44,798 nucleotides of DNA, taken from sequence record LT960609, one strand, 5' to 3'. Origin of the DNA: Escherichia phage SECphi18. The notes under the pieces are model-generated. The model saw only the letters and a list, made by a program, of their open reading frames with translations. It did no database searches and was not told the origin of the DNA. Position numbers and translations under genes: made by a program. Shown piece after piece: positions 1-44,798 of the stretch (its first letter is position 1; each line of letters begins with the position of its first letter).

Positions 1-55
1 GGTGAATAATAGATTGGTTGCAGGATGGGTGTCAACAACTAATTTAAAAAAAAAA
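1..55. repeat. Terminal duplication, copy 1 (identical to 44744-44798)
   Basis: First 55 nt (ggtgaataatagattggttgcagg...aaaaaaaaaa) recur exactly at the window end. Confidence 0.8.
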
Positions 56-80
56 GCGCCGAGGCAAAATGCGACGGCGC
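46..80 (-). terminator. Intrinsic terminator on minus strand
   Basis: Minus strand reads gcgccg-13 nt loop-cggcgc followed by T10 (plus-strand A10 at 46-55). Confidence 0.55.
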
Positions 81-110
81 TAACCAATAAGAGACAATGA
101 GACGGGAATT

Positions 111-2891: not shown

Positions 2892-2976
2892 ATTTTGGGT
2901 GTTTTTATCCGGTCGTATTGGTTGCCGTGTCGTGTAAATATAGTGAATAGTTATGCAATAAAACTGCATAAACTAA

Positions 2977-3078
2977 GCGGGACAAAAAGCGGGACAAACA
3001 TGAGGCGGGACAAAGCGGGACAGCACCCCTGTCCCGCCCCGGATGACGCGGCCTGGCGAGGAGCGGGACAGCGGGACA
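2977..3078. repeat. Iteron cluster A: six direct GCGGGACA copies plus one inverted copy
   Basis: GCGGGACA at about 2977, 2989, 3005, 3015, 3063, 3071; inverted TGTCCCGC at about 3030; non-coding. Confidence 0.7.
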
Positions 3079-3138
3079 GCACCCCAGTCTTTCAGACTAG
3101 ACGGGGTCAGTGGCCCCCCCCCGTCTGAGACTGAATAA
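3064..3138 (+). other. Conserved ~75-nt structured element, copy A (paralog at 19504-19578)
   Basis: cgggacagcgggacagcaccccagtctttcagactagacgggg...ccccgtctgagactgaataa; hairpins agtct/agact and agacgggg/ccccgtct. Confidence 0.55.
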
Positions 3139-19257: not shown

Positions 19258-19261
19258 TGAA

Positions 19262-19518
19262 GCGGGACAAAAGCGGGACGTCCCGTTTTGTCCCGCCCTG
19301 TAAAACCGCATATCTAATCTCTTTCATTGCATAAACTCAAAGCGGGACAGGCGGGACGTCCCGTTTTGTCCCACCCCGAAATGTGCATACCTATTCGAAT
19401 TTCGTGCATAAAACAAACGGGACAAAAAGCGGGACAGCATAGGGGCGGGACAAAGCGGGACAGCACCCCGTCCCCACCAGTGCTGCCGCGGGTTTTAGCC
19501 GATCGGGACAGCGGGACA
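19262..19518. repeat. Iteron cluster B: about nine GCGGGACA-type copies with GGGACGTCCC palindromes
   Basis: Units of about 80 nt: tgcataaa, then GCGGGACA, then GCGGGACgtcccg; non-coding block inside the tail module. Confidence 0.7.
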
Positions 19519-19578
19519 GCACCCCAGTCTTTCAGACTAGACGGGGGTCAACGGCCCCCCTCGTCTGAGACTGAATAA
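19504..19578 (+). other. Conserved ~75-nt structured element, copy B (paralog at 3064-3138)
   Basis: Matches copy A except for a few changes in the second hairpin that keep pairing through a G-U wobble. Confidence 0.55.
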
Positions 19579-40873: not shown

Positions 40874-41659
40874 TTAACGGCGGCGACGTTTACGTGGTGC
40901 TTCGTCTTCGTCGTCGTCCTCATCTTCGTCATCGCGGGACTTGCGGCGCTTGCGAGGTTTTTCATCTTCCTCATCATCGTCGTCGTCATCGCGGCGCTTG
41001 GATTTCTTGGACTTGCGCGGCTTGTCATCTTCATCATCGTCATCACGACGATTTGACTTCTTAGCCTTGCGCGGTGCTTCGTCTTCGTCGTCGTTGTCCA
41101 GGTCTTCATCGGAGCAAGAAGACCCGCCACCCCCGAAGGCTTCACCGTCATCACGGAAGCGTAAACCCAGCAAGCCAGCACCGAGTCCCTTGCCGTTGGT
41201 ATTGTTCCACGCCCAGATATCAAGGGACACGTTGCAATAACAACCGGAGTAGATCTCCTGGCCTTCGATCTCGTCGCCTTCTACTGTCAGACCCTGTTCG
41301 GTCTGCTTCTCACCGAGTGACGTTTGAATGTTTGGCTGTTTGAACGATTTAGCGTTGATGTACAACATGCCTTCGAATTCTTCAGTCACTTCGTCGCGCT
41401 CGTCACCGTCGCGGACTGCGCATTCCTTCGAATCCTGGGCGTAGTGGCGGTCCATCCACTTATCGGCATTCTTCTCGGATTTCAGCTTGTCGGTGAGCAC
41501 TGCGCGCGCTGCCGCTTCCACTTTGTCCACCTGCGGATCTTCTTTATCCAGAAGAATCACGGCACGATATGCCGGTTTTTGTCCATCCTGTTTAGGGGTG
41601 TCACGTTCCCAAATTTTCAGGAAGCATACGCGCACATTTTTCAGGTTGACTTTAGCCAT
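40874..41659 (-). CDS. ssDNA-binding-like protein with repetitive acidic/basic C-terminal tail
   Basis: 261 aa from internal ATG with RBS gaggaa; C-terminal repeats of DDDDEDDKPRKSKKSKRR type. Confidence 0.4.
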   Translation of the reverse strand: MAKVNLKNVRVCFLKIWERDTPKQDGQKPAYRAVILLDKEDPQVDKVEAAARAVLTDKLKSEKNADKWMDRHYAQDSKECAVRDGDERDEVTEEFEGMLYINAKSFKQPNIQTSLGEKQTEQGLTVEGDEIEGQEIYSGCYCNVSLDIWAWNNTNGKGLGAGLLGLRFRDDGEAFGGGGSSCSDEDLDNDDEDEAPRKAKKSNRRDDDDEDDKPRKSKKSKRRDDDDDDEEDEKPRKRRKSRDDEDEDDDEDEAPRKRRRR

Positions 41660-41714
41660 TTTCCAATTCCTCATTTTCACATGTATCGGGGTTATTGGAA
41701 GCCACCCCGTTCGG

Positions 41715-43603: not shown

Positions 43604-43855
43604 TTATTTTGTCTCCCAGCGGTCAATTGTTTTTGCTTCGGATGCAACTGCGAAGCGAACATATTCCAGATTGGAATCCGCCCAAATATAAAAGTCGGGG
43701 TTAGTAAAGGTGGTGCGCTTAATTTGCGCGGGGGTGTTACGGCGTTTATCTATTACGGCAACGCGTGACTGAAAGCAGCCGATGCGTTCGAATAGCCAAT
43801 AGTACGGGCGCTGGTCGCGGGAGTCCACCGCCTCGATTAGCGTGAAGCGTGCCAT
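43604..43855 (-). CDS. Hypothetical protein
   Basis: 83 aa ORF; RBS gaggacgag. Confidence 0.4.
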   Translation of the reverse strand: MARFTLIEAVDSRDQRPYYWLFERIGCFQSRVAVIDKRRNTPAQIKRTTFTNPDFYIWADSNLEYVRFAVASEAKTIDRWETK

Positions 43856-43871
43856 TGTCTCGTCCTCTAAA

Positions 43872-43898
43872 AATAGGCCCGCAGATTAGCGGGCCGGA
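43872..43898 (-). terminator. Terminator-like hairpin on minus strand
   Basis: Minus strand: ggcccgc-taatct-gcgggcc followed by tattttt. Confidence 0.4.
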
Positions 43899-43903
43899 TA
43901 ATA

Positions 43904-44029
43904 TTAATCTTCACCGCCGAGTTGTCTATAAACCTCGTCCGGGTCGTCGCCTCTTTCTTCGCAGAAGGCGGTGAATGCCGCCCAATTTTCTGCTATGAAA
44001 TCGAGCATGATTCTCATTTCATAGTCCAT
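43904..44029 (-). CDS. Small hypothetical protein (41 aa)
   Basis: ATG 4 nt downstream of the 44034 gene stop; below ORF-track cutoff. Confidence 0.25.
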   Translation of the reverse strand: MDYEMRIMLDFIAENWAAFTAFCEERGDDPDEVYRQLGGED

Positions 44030-44033
44030 GATA

Positions 44034-44552
44034 TTAATCTTCCAATTCGAAATAAGTTTCGACGATTTCTTTTAGCTCTTTGTGGAAGTCTTCGACGTCG
44101 TCATCTTCCAGCTTGGCGATTGATTTGATCTCGAACGACTCCAGCAGGTCGTCGAATTCGTCGTTCGCATCGTCGTCATCGCCACCGGCAATAATCGCGG
44201 CATACTGTTTGATCTCGTCGCGCATCTCCGCCAGCGGATCGGCATCTTTCTTACCTTTGCCTTTCGCCGGTGCTTTTTTAGCCTTAGCCGGTTTTTCGTC
44301 TTCGGCTTCTTCATCGTCGTCATCTTCTACGACTTCTTTTTTGGCCTTACCCTTTGCCGGCGCTTTTTTAGCCTTAGCCGGTTTTTCGTCTTCGGCTTCA
44401 TCGTCGTCATCTTCGACAACTTCTTTTTTGGCCTTAGACGGCTTCTTGTCTTCCTGCTTACCAACGGCAGCGCCAACGGTTTCATAATGCTTTGCAATGG
44501 TTTCCAGTGCTACTACGCCGCGAGTGATCAGGTTTACGATTTGCTCAAACAT
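44034..44552 (-). CDS. Acidic protein with internal ~90-bp tandem duplication
   Basis: 172 aa from internal ATG with RBS ggagat; repeated KPAKAKKAPAKGK-KEVVEDDDDE blocks. Confidence 0.5.
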   Translation of the reverse strand: MFEQIVNLITRGVVALETIAKHYETVGAAVGKQEDKKPSKAKKEVVEDDDDEAEDEKPAKAKKAPAKGKAKKEVVEDDDDEEAEDEKPAKAKKAPAKGKGKKDADPLAEMRDEIKQYAAIIAGGDDDDANDEFDDLLESFEIKSIAKLEDDDVEDFHKELKEIVETYFELED

Positions 44553-44743
44553 GGTATATCTCCGATTGGTTAAGTTTAGGTGTCGGCAGTTAACTTCGTC
44601 GGTGGCCTTAACATATTGCCAGGTTACGCGTTCTCCCGTTCGGGTAGTGGACCTGGTTATATAATCACGGTTGGGAATCCTGACACTTCGATCCGGCCCC
44701 TGCGTTGCCCCTCTCCAGTTTGCGTCCTGCATCCTGTCGACGG

Positions 44744-44798
44744 GGTGAATAATAGATTGGTTGCAGGATGGGTGTCAACAACTAATTTAAAAAAAAAA
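44744..44798. repeat. Terminal duplication, copy 2 (identical to 1-55)
   Basis: Last 55 nt equal the first 55 nt. Confidence 0.8.

What the first reader, a model, noticed from the sequence alone, without database searches (positions are those of the whole stretch)
44034..44552. Acidic protein with an in-frame ~90-bp tandem duplication
Two nearly identical ~90-bp DNA copies (about 44257-44437) encode repeated lysine-rich and Asp/Glu-rich blocks, at the start of the leftward early operon. A DNA mimic or anti-restriction role is possible.
Basis: inference. Interest (0 to 1): 0.4.

Follow-up and report, generated by a model that had tools for sequence, protein, structure and literature searches.

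The report
Variable charged linker in phage protein
The 87-bp in-frame duplication is real, but it only lengthens a floppy, charge-striped spacer inside a small acidic early protein of unknown function that heads the DNA recombination/replication gene block of many enterobacterial phages; there is no evidence that it blocks restriction enzymes.

Summary
Observation confirmed. The minus-strand gene 44034..44552 (172 aa, pI 4.5) holds two in-frame tandem units of 87 and 90 nt (44259..44435). They differ by 6 synonymous changes and one Glu codon. The window is a Dhillonvirus (HK578-like coliphage) genome.

The repeat lies wholly in a predicted disordered linker of alternating Lys/Ala/Pro and Asp/Glu blocks. 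Close relatives carry 0, 1, 2 or 3 units, so it is a length polymorphism, and some GenBank records already mark it as repeat_region. The conserved parts are a hydrophobic N-terminal helix and a confidently predicted acidic three-helix C-domain.

The family (PHROG 3127) has no Pfam, NCBIfam, PADLOC, PDB or informative fold match. It occurs in at least 437 phage records and in no bacterial genome scanned. In all 14 contexts examined it sits ahead of a DUF2800 nuclease, with a Gp2.5-type SSB and PolA following wherever the contig extends that far. A strong sigma-70-type promoter and a terminator bracket it.

Function is untested. My best inference (about 0.4) is an abundant early protein whose acidic domain binds a DNA-handling protein tied to end processing or recombination. 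An Ocr-like anti-restriction role is disfavoured: BASEL phages that carry the gene are strongly restricted. Interest is modest.

The parts
44749..44778 (-). Sigma-70-type promoter of the leftward unit (TTGACA, 18 nt, TATTAT; 11 of 12 matches). Upstream of it in the circular genome lie a T10 tract and a GC hairpin.
   Evidence: Promoter scan. Junction sequence. The identical 30-mer is present in relatives L001, L002 and L005.
44553..44742 (-). 5' leader of about 190 nt. GGAG lies at 44560..44563, 7 nt before the ATG. No special RNA structure was detected.
   Evidence: Sequence. RNA fold z-score +0.99. No Rfam match above chance.
44034..44552 (-). Coding sequence of the 172-aa acidic protein, a PHROG 3127 member of unknown function.
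   Evidence: ORF list. PHROG match E = 1.7e-53. 166 homologues.
44463..44552 (-). Residues 1-30: conserved hydrophobic N-terminal helix (heptad-like; E3, R11 and E17 conserved). Probable oligomerisation or docking element.
   Evidence: AF2 helix 2-26/28 with pLDDT 50-63. Column conservation across 48 diverse members.
44238..44462 (-). Residues 31-105: predicted disordered linker of alternating basic (KPAKAKKAPAKGK) and acidic (EVVEDDDDEAEDE) blocks.
   Evidence: pLDDT below 50 over residues 22-102. Linker length 22-86 aa across 118 clusters, and Lys/Arg and Asp/Glu counts rise together (r = 0.82).
44349..44435 (-). Repeat unit 1 (87 nt, aa 40-68).
44259..44348 (-). Repeat unit 2 (90 nt, aa 69-98). 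It differs from unit 1 by 6 synonymous changes and one extra GAA codon.
44037..44237 (-). Residues 106-172: conserved acidic three-helix C-terminal domain. The last 63 aa have net charge -18.
   Evidence: AF2 helices 106-123, 127-139 and 150-168 with pLDDT 82-90. Net charge. 8 columns at least 80% Asp/Glu and 18 of 64 at least 60%.
43904..44029 (-). Optional 41-aa acidic ORF (PHROG 15754) between the gene and the terminator. It is absent from several relatives.
   Evidence: In L005, L008-L011 and L014 the terminator starts 12 nt after the target's last codon. Bas14 has only 49 nt between the target and the next gene.
43876..43895 (-). Intrinsic terminator hairpin (GGCCCGC-TAATCT-GCGGGCC) followed by TATTTTT. 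It closes the short early transcription unit.
   Evidence: Terminator scan. Conserved in 7 related loci. A 'terminator' feature is annotated in phage PTXU06.
41985..43415 (-). Context gene: DUF2800 PD-(D/E)XK nuclease, the homologue of Bas14_0045 ('B14T'). The target gene family is always found upstream of such a gene.
   Evidence: Pfam DUF2800 E = 2e-66. Synteny. bioRxiv 10.64898/2026.07.14.737667.
40874..41680 (-). Context gene: Gp2.5/Enc34-type ssDNA-binding annealase. Its own C-terminal tail has four acidic-plus-basic blocks (54-bp repeat at 40966..41098).
   Evidence: Family assignment from the Pfam labels of the homologues, and from PMC8093625.
38357..40648 (-). Context gene: family A DNA polymerase.

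Best explanation
The explanation has two layers.

(A) What the repeat is (well supported, about 0.85). The two units duplicate one 'basic block + acidic block' module inside an intrinsically disordered, charge-striped linker. The linker joins two conserved parts of a small early phage protein. Unequal recombination or slippage between the units adds and removes copies, so close relatives carry 0 to 3 units. Selection keeps the charge pattern and the reading frame but not the length.

(B) What the protein does (inferred, about 0.4). It is made early and probably in large amounts, from its own strong promoter, with a terminator right behind it. The N-terminal helix probably makes it oligomerise or dock. 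The acidic three-helix C-domain probably binds a positively charged, DNA-binding surface of another protein, as a nucleic-acid-like decoy or adaptor. The flexible linker, with its Lys-rich or AT-hook-like patches, gives reach and possibly weak DNA contact.

The gene is always welded to the head of the DUF2800 nuclease / Gp2.5-type annealase / PolA module. The partner is therefore most likely a DNA-end-processing or recombination protein. One candidate is host RecBCD, which would match the gene position of lambda gam and T7 5.9 ahead of their exonucleases. The other is the module's own nuclease or SSB.

Shown: anatomy, disorder, polymorphism, conservation, synteny, promoter and terminator. Inferred: oligomerisation, abundance, binding partner, mimicry.
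For: Repeat and polymorphism:
- TRF array.
- 6 synonymous and 0 non-synonymous differences between the units.
- Linker of 22-86 aa in 118 clusters at 90% identity, while the N- and C-terminal parts are almost invariant.
- One unit in Bas14 and HK578, two here, three near-identical units in SM_A2.
- Mean identity 0.907 between the two copies within a genome, 0.915 and 0.928 between orthologous copies, and 0.885 between paralogous copies of different genomes.

Disorder and domains:
- Two AF2 runs.
- Positionally conserved acidic residues.

Core-gene status:
- All 14 contexts examined place the gene 0 to 4 small ORFs upstream of a DUF2800 nuclease, down to about 25% identity.
- The SSB and PolA follow wherever the contig extends that far.
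- At least 437 phage records carry the family. None of 185,579 bacterial species genomes does.

Expression unit: promoter and terminator.

Module biology from papers:
- 'duf2800-gp2.5-polA' is a recognised module, PMC8093625.
- The Bas14 DUF2800 protein is a non-essential AdnA/RecB-like nuclease, bioRxiv 10.64898/2026.07.14.737667.
- P2 OLD, which RecBCD inhibitors trigger, protects against Dhillonvirus, bioRxiv 10.64898/2026.07.10.737580.

Possible electrostatic partner: the SSBs of this module all carry block-charged tails that end in Arg/Lys runs.

Own knowledge, not tested here: lambda gam and T7 5.9 lie directly ahead of their phage's exonuclease genes.
Against: - No experiment exists on any member of the family.
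- There is no homology or specific fold match to any DNA mimic or RecBCD inhibitor. The fold is a generic three-helix bundle that also matches de novo designed proteins.
- A 63-aa domain on a floppy tether is unlike the rigid elongated dimers of Ocr or Gam.
- The N-helix has only pLDDT 50-63, and oligomerisation was not modelled.
- According to the same preprint, replication intermediates also trigger OLD, so OLD sensitivity is not specific to a RecBCD inhibitor. In the BASEL data the Old effect on Bas14-16 is weak.
- The basic patches fit a DNA-binding role equally well.
- The synteny does not say whether the partner is a host or a phage protein.
Confidence: 0.4

Rival explanations
1. Ocr/ArdA-like anti-restriction protein. 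The acidic protein would mimic DNA and block type I, or other, restriction enzymes soon after infection.
For: The protein is acidic (pI 4.46). It is small, early and behind a strong promoter. The C-domain has net charge -18.
Against: - There is no Pfam, PDB or fold similarity to Ocr, ArdA or other anti-restriction proteins.
- Bas15 carries the gene and is restricted about 100-fold by type I EcoCFT_I through one site. EcoRI, EcoRV and type III systems restrict it 1e-4 to 1e-5 or completely.
- Bas14 and Bas15 have only 0-1 type I sites, which suggests site avoidance instead of inhibition.
- BASEL describes the genus as considerably to moderately RM-sensitive.
- The gene is a syntenic core gene of a replication module.
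- In database records that seem to start near the packaging genes it lies about 35 kb into a 44-kb genome, not at an end.
Confidence: 0.07
2. Architectural DNA-binding protein (HMGA / histone H1 / phi29 p6-like). The Lys-rich or AT-hook-like patches would bind the minor groove of AT-rich DNA, for example at the adjacent divergent promoter/origin region. This would help open or organise DNA for replication, with the acidic domain tuning binding or recruiting the replisome.
For: - [KR]-G-[KR] cores are five-fold enriched in family linkers over shuffles: 42 observed against 7.9 +/- 2.7, with a maximum of 18 in 1000 shuffles.
- Clear AT-hook cores such as KRGRPAKSK, SRGRPKKD and PKKRGRKAK occur in distant members.
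- The window protein has H1-like AKKAPAKGK blocks in the same place.
- A basic patch just before the C-domain is retained even in the shortest variants.
- The gene abuts the 401-nt divergent control region.
- The expression unit suggests high abundance.
- Own knowledge: AT-hook and H1-like regions are functionally interchangeable in the bacterial factor CarD.
Against: - Only 21 of 49 diverse members have any [KR]G[KR], and the window protein has no RGR core.
- Each basic block is flanked by an equally strong acidic block, the linker net charge is about -2, and the whole protein is -23. All of this should oppose DNA binding.
- The most conserved parts are the N-helix and the acidic domain, not the basic patches.
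- Variants with almost no linker exist.
Confidence: 0.2
3. The DNA repeat is itself the functional element, for example origin iterons embedded in a tolerant coding region as in the lambda O gene, and the repeated peptide is a by-product.
For: The repeat lies next to the divergent control region of the replication genes. It falls in a linker-coding segment, as does lambda ori (own knowledge).
Against: - All 6 differences between the units are synonymous, so the constraint is on the peptide and not on the DNA.
- Copy number varies from 0 to 3 in viable isolates.
- Orthologous units differ by many substitutions and indels.
- Distant relatives keep the charge pattern with unrelated DNA and peptide sequences.
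- The unit is 87-90 bp and G+C-rich, unlike iterons.
Confidence: 0.03
4. Regulator of transcription. The first early product would act on host RNA polymerase, for example to let transcription read through the terminator at 43895..43876 into the replication genes, or to shut off host transcription.
For: It is the first gene after the early promoter, and a terminator separates it from the replication genes. Acidic helical domains that enter the RNA polymerase DNA channel are known (own knowledge: sigma-70 region 1.1, T7 Gp2, SPO1 Gp44; the last is the subject of PMC8208478, listed).
Against: There is no similarity to any such factor. The leader RNA has no notable structure. Synteny ties the gene to the nuclease and not to the terminator: in some distant loci it directly abuts DUF2800, with a 1-nt gap in L030.
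Confidence: 0.08

Closest known systems
Lambda Gam and T7 gp5.9 (phage inhibitors of host RecBCD that act as DNA mimics)
   Same: They are small acidic early proteins encoded directly ahead of the phage's own exonuclease/annealase genes (own knowledge). Here the gene heads a DUF2800 nuclease / Gp2.5-type annealase module. P2 OLD, which senses RecBCD inhibition, targets the genus.
   Different: There is no sequence or fold similarity. Gam and gp5.9 are rigid helical dimers without a long disordered linker. This protein has basic patches and a small globular acidic domain. RecBCD inhibition is untested.
T7 Ocr (gp0.3) and ArdA (anti-restriction DNA mimics)
   Same: Acidic, early, highly expressed.
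   Different: There is no homology or fold match. Carrier phages are strongly restricted. The gene is a core module gene and does not lie at the leading genome end.
HMGA / histone H1-like charged tails and nucleoplasmin-type acidic-basic tails
   Same: Low-complexity Lys/Ala/Pro blocks, or RGRP-type AT-hook cores in relatives, alternate with Asp/Glu tracts. The only PDB sequence hit is the nucleoplasmin tail, at a non-significant E = 5.
   Different: The resemblance is compositional, not homologous. The window protein lacks a true R-G-R-P core. The net charge is strongly negative. The segment is dispensable in natural variants.
PHROG 3127 / VOG1545 ('hypothetical protein'; '13.88 kDa late protein' of Salmonella phage MB78)
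   Same: Direct membership: full-length match with E = 1.7e-53. The same family is found in Dhillonvirus, Guernseyvirinae, eiAU-like and other phages.
   Different: Nothing differs, but the family has no known function. I could not trace the 'late protein' label to any paper in the library.
T7 gp2.5 acidic C-terminal tail and replisome electrostatic contacts
   Same: Charged, flexible segments mediate contacts among replication proteins (own knowledge). The Gp2.5-type SSB of this module also carries a repetitive charged tail.
   Different: Here the tails are block polyampholytes that end in Arg/Lys runs, not purely acidic tails. The protein under study is a separate polypeptide with a folded acidic domain.

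Membership tests
PHROG 3127 (uncharacterised phage protein family) | Full-length profile match | tested here: met
   E = 1.7e-53, residues 1-172 on profile positions 1-178 of 178.
Ocr / ArdA anti-restriction DNA mimics | Sequence or fold similarity to Ocr or ArdA | tested here: not met
Ocr / ArdA anti-restriction DNA mimics | Carrier phage escapes type I restriction | tested here: not met
   This rests on published data, not on a test of the gene itself. Bas15 has EOP 0.006-0.014 on EcoCFT_I with one site. Bas15 carries the gene.
Ocr / ArdA anti-restriction DNA mimics | Rigid elongated dimer whose carboxylates trace B-DNA phosphates | tested here: inconclusive
   The model shows a compact 63-aa three-helix domain on a disordered tether. 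Oligomers could not be modelled.
Gam / gp5.9-type RecBCD inhibitors | Homology to Gam (lambda or Mu) or gp5.9 | tested here: not met
Gam / gp5.9-type RecBCD inhibitors | Encoded next to the phage's own exonuclease/annealase genes | tested here: met
   Upstream of DUF2800 in all 14 contexts examined. The Gp2.5-type SSB follows wherever the contig reaches that far.
Gam / gp5.9-type RecBCD inhibitors | Binds and inhibits RecBCD | not testable with these tools
   This needs complex prediction or biochemistry.
AT-hook (HMGA-like) DNA-binding proteins | R-G-R-P core flanked by basic residues | tested here: not met
   The window protein has K-G-K (AKGKAKK, AKGKGKK) and no RGR. True cores occur in some relatives, for example P0105 with KRGRPAKSK.
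Intrinsically disordered polyampholyte linker | Low predicted order, low complexity, and tolerance of length change | tested here: met
   pLDDT below 50 over residues 22-102. Linker of 22-86 aa across clusters whose flanks are nearly invariant. 0-3 units.
Origin iterons inside a replication gene (lambda O type) | DNA-level conservation of short repeats that does not depend on coding | tested here: not met
   Differences between the units are all synonymous. Copy number is 0-3, and the units are not conserved in distant relatives.

The most novel reading that the evidence does not exclude
The protein and the Gp2.5-type SSB of the same module both carry repetitive 'acidic block + basic block' disordered segments, a trait conserved across distant relatives. 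Together they might form a charge-driven assembly: a condensate-like hub that concentrates the nuclease, annealase and polymerase on phage DNA. The number of repeat units would tune its valency. That would be a new organising principle for a small-phage replication/recombination factory, with a natural copy-number series (0-3 units) to test it.
Probability: 0.08. Interest if true: 0.7.

Novelty: new member of a known kind. Interest (0 to 1): 0.3.

Why it matters
The repeat itself is an ordinary length polymorphism. The gene carrying it is the conserved, strongly promoted head gene of the DUF2800 / Gp2.5 / PolA recombination-replication module. It occurs in hundreds of cultured enterobacterial siphoviruses (Dhillonvirus, Guernseyvirinae, eiAU-like), including tractable BASEL phages, and nobody knows what it does.

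The neighbouring nuclease has just been shown to trigger a retron defence, and the genus is sensitive to OLD, a sensor of RecBCD status. A protein that manages DNA ends or the host RecBCD in these phages would therefore be useful to identify. The natural series of 0 to 3 linker units offers a ready-made test of whether spacer length matters.

Tried and rejected
- **Family libraries.** Pfam, NCBIfam and PADLOC gave nothing for the protein. A borderline DUF6669 hit (E = 0.06) was not reproduced in any of 42 diverse members.
- **Solved structures.** A profile search of the PDB found only a non-significant nucleoplasmin tail.
- **RNA.** Rfam on 43800..44798 gave only a chance-level RyhB match that overlies the terminator. 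The 190-nt leader is not unusually structured.
- **Long ORF.** The 232-aa reading from 44732 was rejected.
- **Cis-element idea.** Rejected.
- **Second structure run.** A short-linker variant with a deeper alignment did not give a confident packing of the N-helix.
- **Locus scans.** The search for related loci with the most diverse alignment failed for lack of a conserved stretch. A scan of bacterial genomes found no relative.
- **Literature.** Searches on Dhillonvirus, Bas14, DUF2800, AT-hook plus phage, and MB78 found no study of this gene.
- **'Prohead core protein'.** One record (vB_EcoS-UDS3lw) uses this label. It is isolated and at odds with the gene's position and expression signals.

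Full report
**What the window is.** The last 1.8 kb matches 175 phage records at 90-97% identity, almost all of them Dhillonvirus (HK578-like coliphages). The window is a whole genome of that genus. Its last ~55 nt repeat its first ~55 nt, which is an assembler overlap of a circular contig. So the region 'after' the window end continues at the window start. There a 109-aa HTH gene and a primase-helicase run rightward.

**The observation.** Tandem Repeats Finder reports an 87-bp period with 2.0 copies and 92% matches at 44260..44436. The gene is on the minus strand at 44034..44552, with GGAG 7 nt ahead of the ATG. In codon register the units are 44349..44435 (29 codons) and 44259..44348 (30 codons). 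They differ by six substitutions, all synonymous, and one extra Glu codon. The protein has 172 aa, pI 4.46, 53 acidic and 30 basic residues. The records of phages welsh, jat and bob already carry a repeat_region feature here.

**Anatomy of the protein.** 166 homologues were found among 5.8 billion clustered proteins. They share three parts:
- The first ~30 residues are almost invariant.
- The last ~65 residues are almost invariant.
- The middle segment varies in length and is built of Lys/Ala/Pro blocks alternating with Asp/Glu blocks.

Across 118 clusters the middle segment measures 22 to 86 residues. Its basic and acidic counts rise together (r = 0.82) and its net charge stays near -2. The C-terminal 63 residues carry -18.

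AlphaFold2 was run twice, on the window protein and on a natural 115-aa short-linker variant. Both runs give an N-terminal helix of low to moderate confidence, a disordered middle (pLDDT below 50 over residues 22-102, which covers the whole repeat) and a three-helix C-domain (pLDDT 82-90). In 48 diverse members the N-helix shows a heptad-like hydrophobic pattern with conserved E3, R11 and E17. The C-domain has 8 columns that are at least 80% Asp/Glu and 18 of 64 that are at least 60%.

**The repeat is a length polymorphism.** Within Dhillonvirus I found variants with no acidic block (P0098, P0083, P0094), one unit (HK578, Bas14 TheodorHerzl), two units (this window and most others), partial units, and three nearly identical units in phage SM_A2 (90 bp x 3.2, 97%).

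Copies within a genome are on average 90.7% identical. Orthologous copies are 91.5-92.8% identical, and paralogous copies from different genomes are 88.5% identical. So the duplication is old relative to the genus, with occasional homogenisation or new expansions. The six-to-zero synonymous excess shows that the peptide, not the DNA, is under constraint. That argues against the repeat being a cis-acting DNA element.

**How wide the family is.** A profile search of 1.84 billion representatives found only 65 clusters at 50% identity. All are 115-212 aa with the same layout, and three have a duplicated C-domain. Cultured-phage members include Edwardsiella eiAU Gp46, Salmonella phages St162 and MB78, Cornellvirus VSiA, Kagunavirus, and Serratia, Enterobacter and Klebsiella phages. 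A single divergent query hits 437 records. None was found in 185,579 bacterial and archaeal species genomes, so the family appears confined to virulent phages.

In relatives the linker often carries AT-hook-like cores such as KRGRPAKSK, SRGRPKKD and PKKRGRKAK. [KR]G[KR] is five-fold enriched over shuffled linkers, but it occurs in only 21 of 49 members, and the window protein has K-G-K instead.

**Context.** All 14 contexts examined place the gene at the head of the same block, 0 to 4 small ORFs upstream of a DUF2800 PD-(D/E)XK nuclease. These contexts are Bas14, Cornellvirus VSiA, eight loci at about 37-39% identity, and four of the most divergent members. Wherever the contig extends far enough, a Gp2.5/Enc34-type ssDNA-binding annealase and a family A polymerase follow. 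The block is usually divergent from an HTH gene and a primase-helicase.

The literature recognises 'duf2800-gp2.5-polA' as a module (PMC8093625). A 2026 preprint shows that the Bas14 DUF2800 protein is a non-essential AdnA/RecB-like nuclease that triggers a type IX retron.

The gene has its own near-consensus promoter (TTGACA-18-TATTAT, preceded by a T-tract) and an intrinsic terminator. In this window the terminator follows an optional 41-aa ORF. In several relatives it starts 12 nt after the target's last codon. This predicts early and probably high expression relative to the enzymes downstream.

BASEL reports Dhillonviruses as considerably to moderately sensitive to restriction. In the raw data Bas15, which carries a two-unit copy, plates as follows:
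- 0.006-0.014 on type I EcoCFT_I, with one site
- about 2e-4 on EcoRI
- not at all on EcoRV
- about 1e-5 on a type III system

Bas14 has no type I sites and gives essentially no plaques on EcoRV. So these phages show no Ocr-grade protection. The duplicated segment itself is disordered and dispensable. A DNA-mimic role remains possible only for the C-domain, and it is unproven.

**Most likely mechanism.** I commit to the following at about 0.4. The protein is an abundant early adaptor or decoy. Its N-helix oligomerises or docks. Its acidic three-helix domain binds a basic, DNA-binding surface of a protein involved in DNA-end processing or recombination. The charge-striped linker is a flexible spacer whose length is free to drift.

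The partner could be host RecBCD. The gene occupies the position that gam and 5.9 hold ahead of the exonucleases of lambda and T7 (own knowledge). P2 OLD, which RecBCD inhibitors trigger, protects against Dhillonvirus, although that signal is not specific. The partner could equally be the module's own nuclease or its SSB. The SSB's tail is likewise a series of acidic and Arg/Lys blocks in all relatives checked.

The rivals are:
- an HMGA/H1-like architectural DNA binder (0.2)
- a transcription factor acting on RNA polymerase or the terminator (0.08)
- Ocr-like anti-restriction (0.07)
- a cis-acting DNA repeat (0.03)

**Verdict.** The feature is real, but the repeat is an ordinary polymorphism in a disordered linker. 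The protein family is uncharacterised, widespread and experimentally tractable. That gives it modest interest (0.3) as a candidate for functional study, not as a surprising finding.

Noticed in passing
window 1..55 and 44744..44798: The first ~55 nt and the last ~55 nt of the window are the same sequence (…GGTGAATAATAGATTGGTTGCAGGATGGGTGTCAACAACTAATTTAAAAAAAAAA). This is an assembler overlap of a circular contig. The early leftward promoter therefore appears at both ends, and the true intergenic region is ~401 nt, as in phage welsh.
   Followed up: yes
window 40874..41100 (minus strand; 54-bp x 2.4 repeat at 40966..41098): The Gp2.5/Enc34-type SSB ends in four 'acidic run + PRK(S/A/R)KKS(K/N)RR' blocks and a terminal PRKRRRR. 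SSBs of distant relatives (VSiA, L003, L027, Bas14) have the same block-charged tails with 2-4 blocks. T7 gp2.5, by contrast, has a purely acidic tail. The tails might interact with the acidic protein studied here.
   Followed up: partly
window 43904..44029 (minus strand): A 41-aa very acidic ORF (pI 4.05, PHROG 15754) sits between the target gene and the terminator. It is missing in Bas14 and in six IMG/VR relatives, where the terminator follows the target gene directly. It is an optional small insert of unknown function.
   Followed up: partly
window 2975..2998, 3062..3080, 19260..19435, 19504..19520: The motif AAGCGGGAC(A) and its complement recur in short tandem arrays at two distant places in the genome, including a 78-bp x 2.2 array. 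They could be regulatory sites or terminator-like elements. I did not examine them.
   Followed up: no
window ~44779..44798 continuing at ~56..100 (junction region): Just upstream of the leftward promoter's -35 lie a T10 tract and a GC hairpin (GCGCCGTCGCATTTTGCCTCGGCGC on the minus strand). Together they look like a terminator for leftward transcription or like an UP-element. A rightward TTGACA-17-TAGTTT promoter lies about 150 nt further on.
   Followed up: partly
proteins P0121, P0123, P0134: Three divergent family members (208-212 aa) carry two copies of the acidic C-terminal domain in tandem. Domain-level duplication therefore also occurs in this family.
   Followed up: no
L035 (PQ843332.1, phage P-GXEC-L2P5) and proteins P0097, P0103, P0104: Several database copies of the gene are frameshifted, some within or after runs of A from Lys codons. 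The P-GXEC-L2P5 record is 88.6 kb, twice the genus size, with two matches to the gene. These are probably sequencing or assembly errors, not biology.
   Followed up: partly
one search hit list (MG065648.1 and others): Records labelled Campylobacter phage A144, an Acinetobacter phage and Sodalis phages carry near-identical copies of this Dhillonvirus gene (up to 99% in the aligned parts). The host labels may reflect contamination or misassignment.
   Followed up: no
window 43869..43929 (minus strand): A weak Rfam RyhB match (20.3 bits against a gathering score of 55, E = 0.52) overlies the intrinsic terminator. I judge it to be chance similarity of a terminator hairpin.
   Followed up: yes
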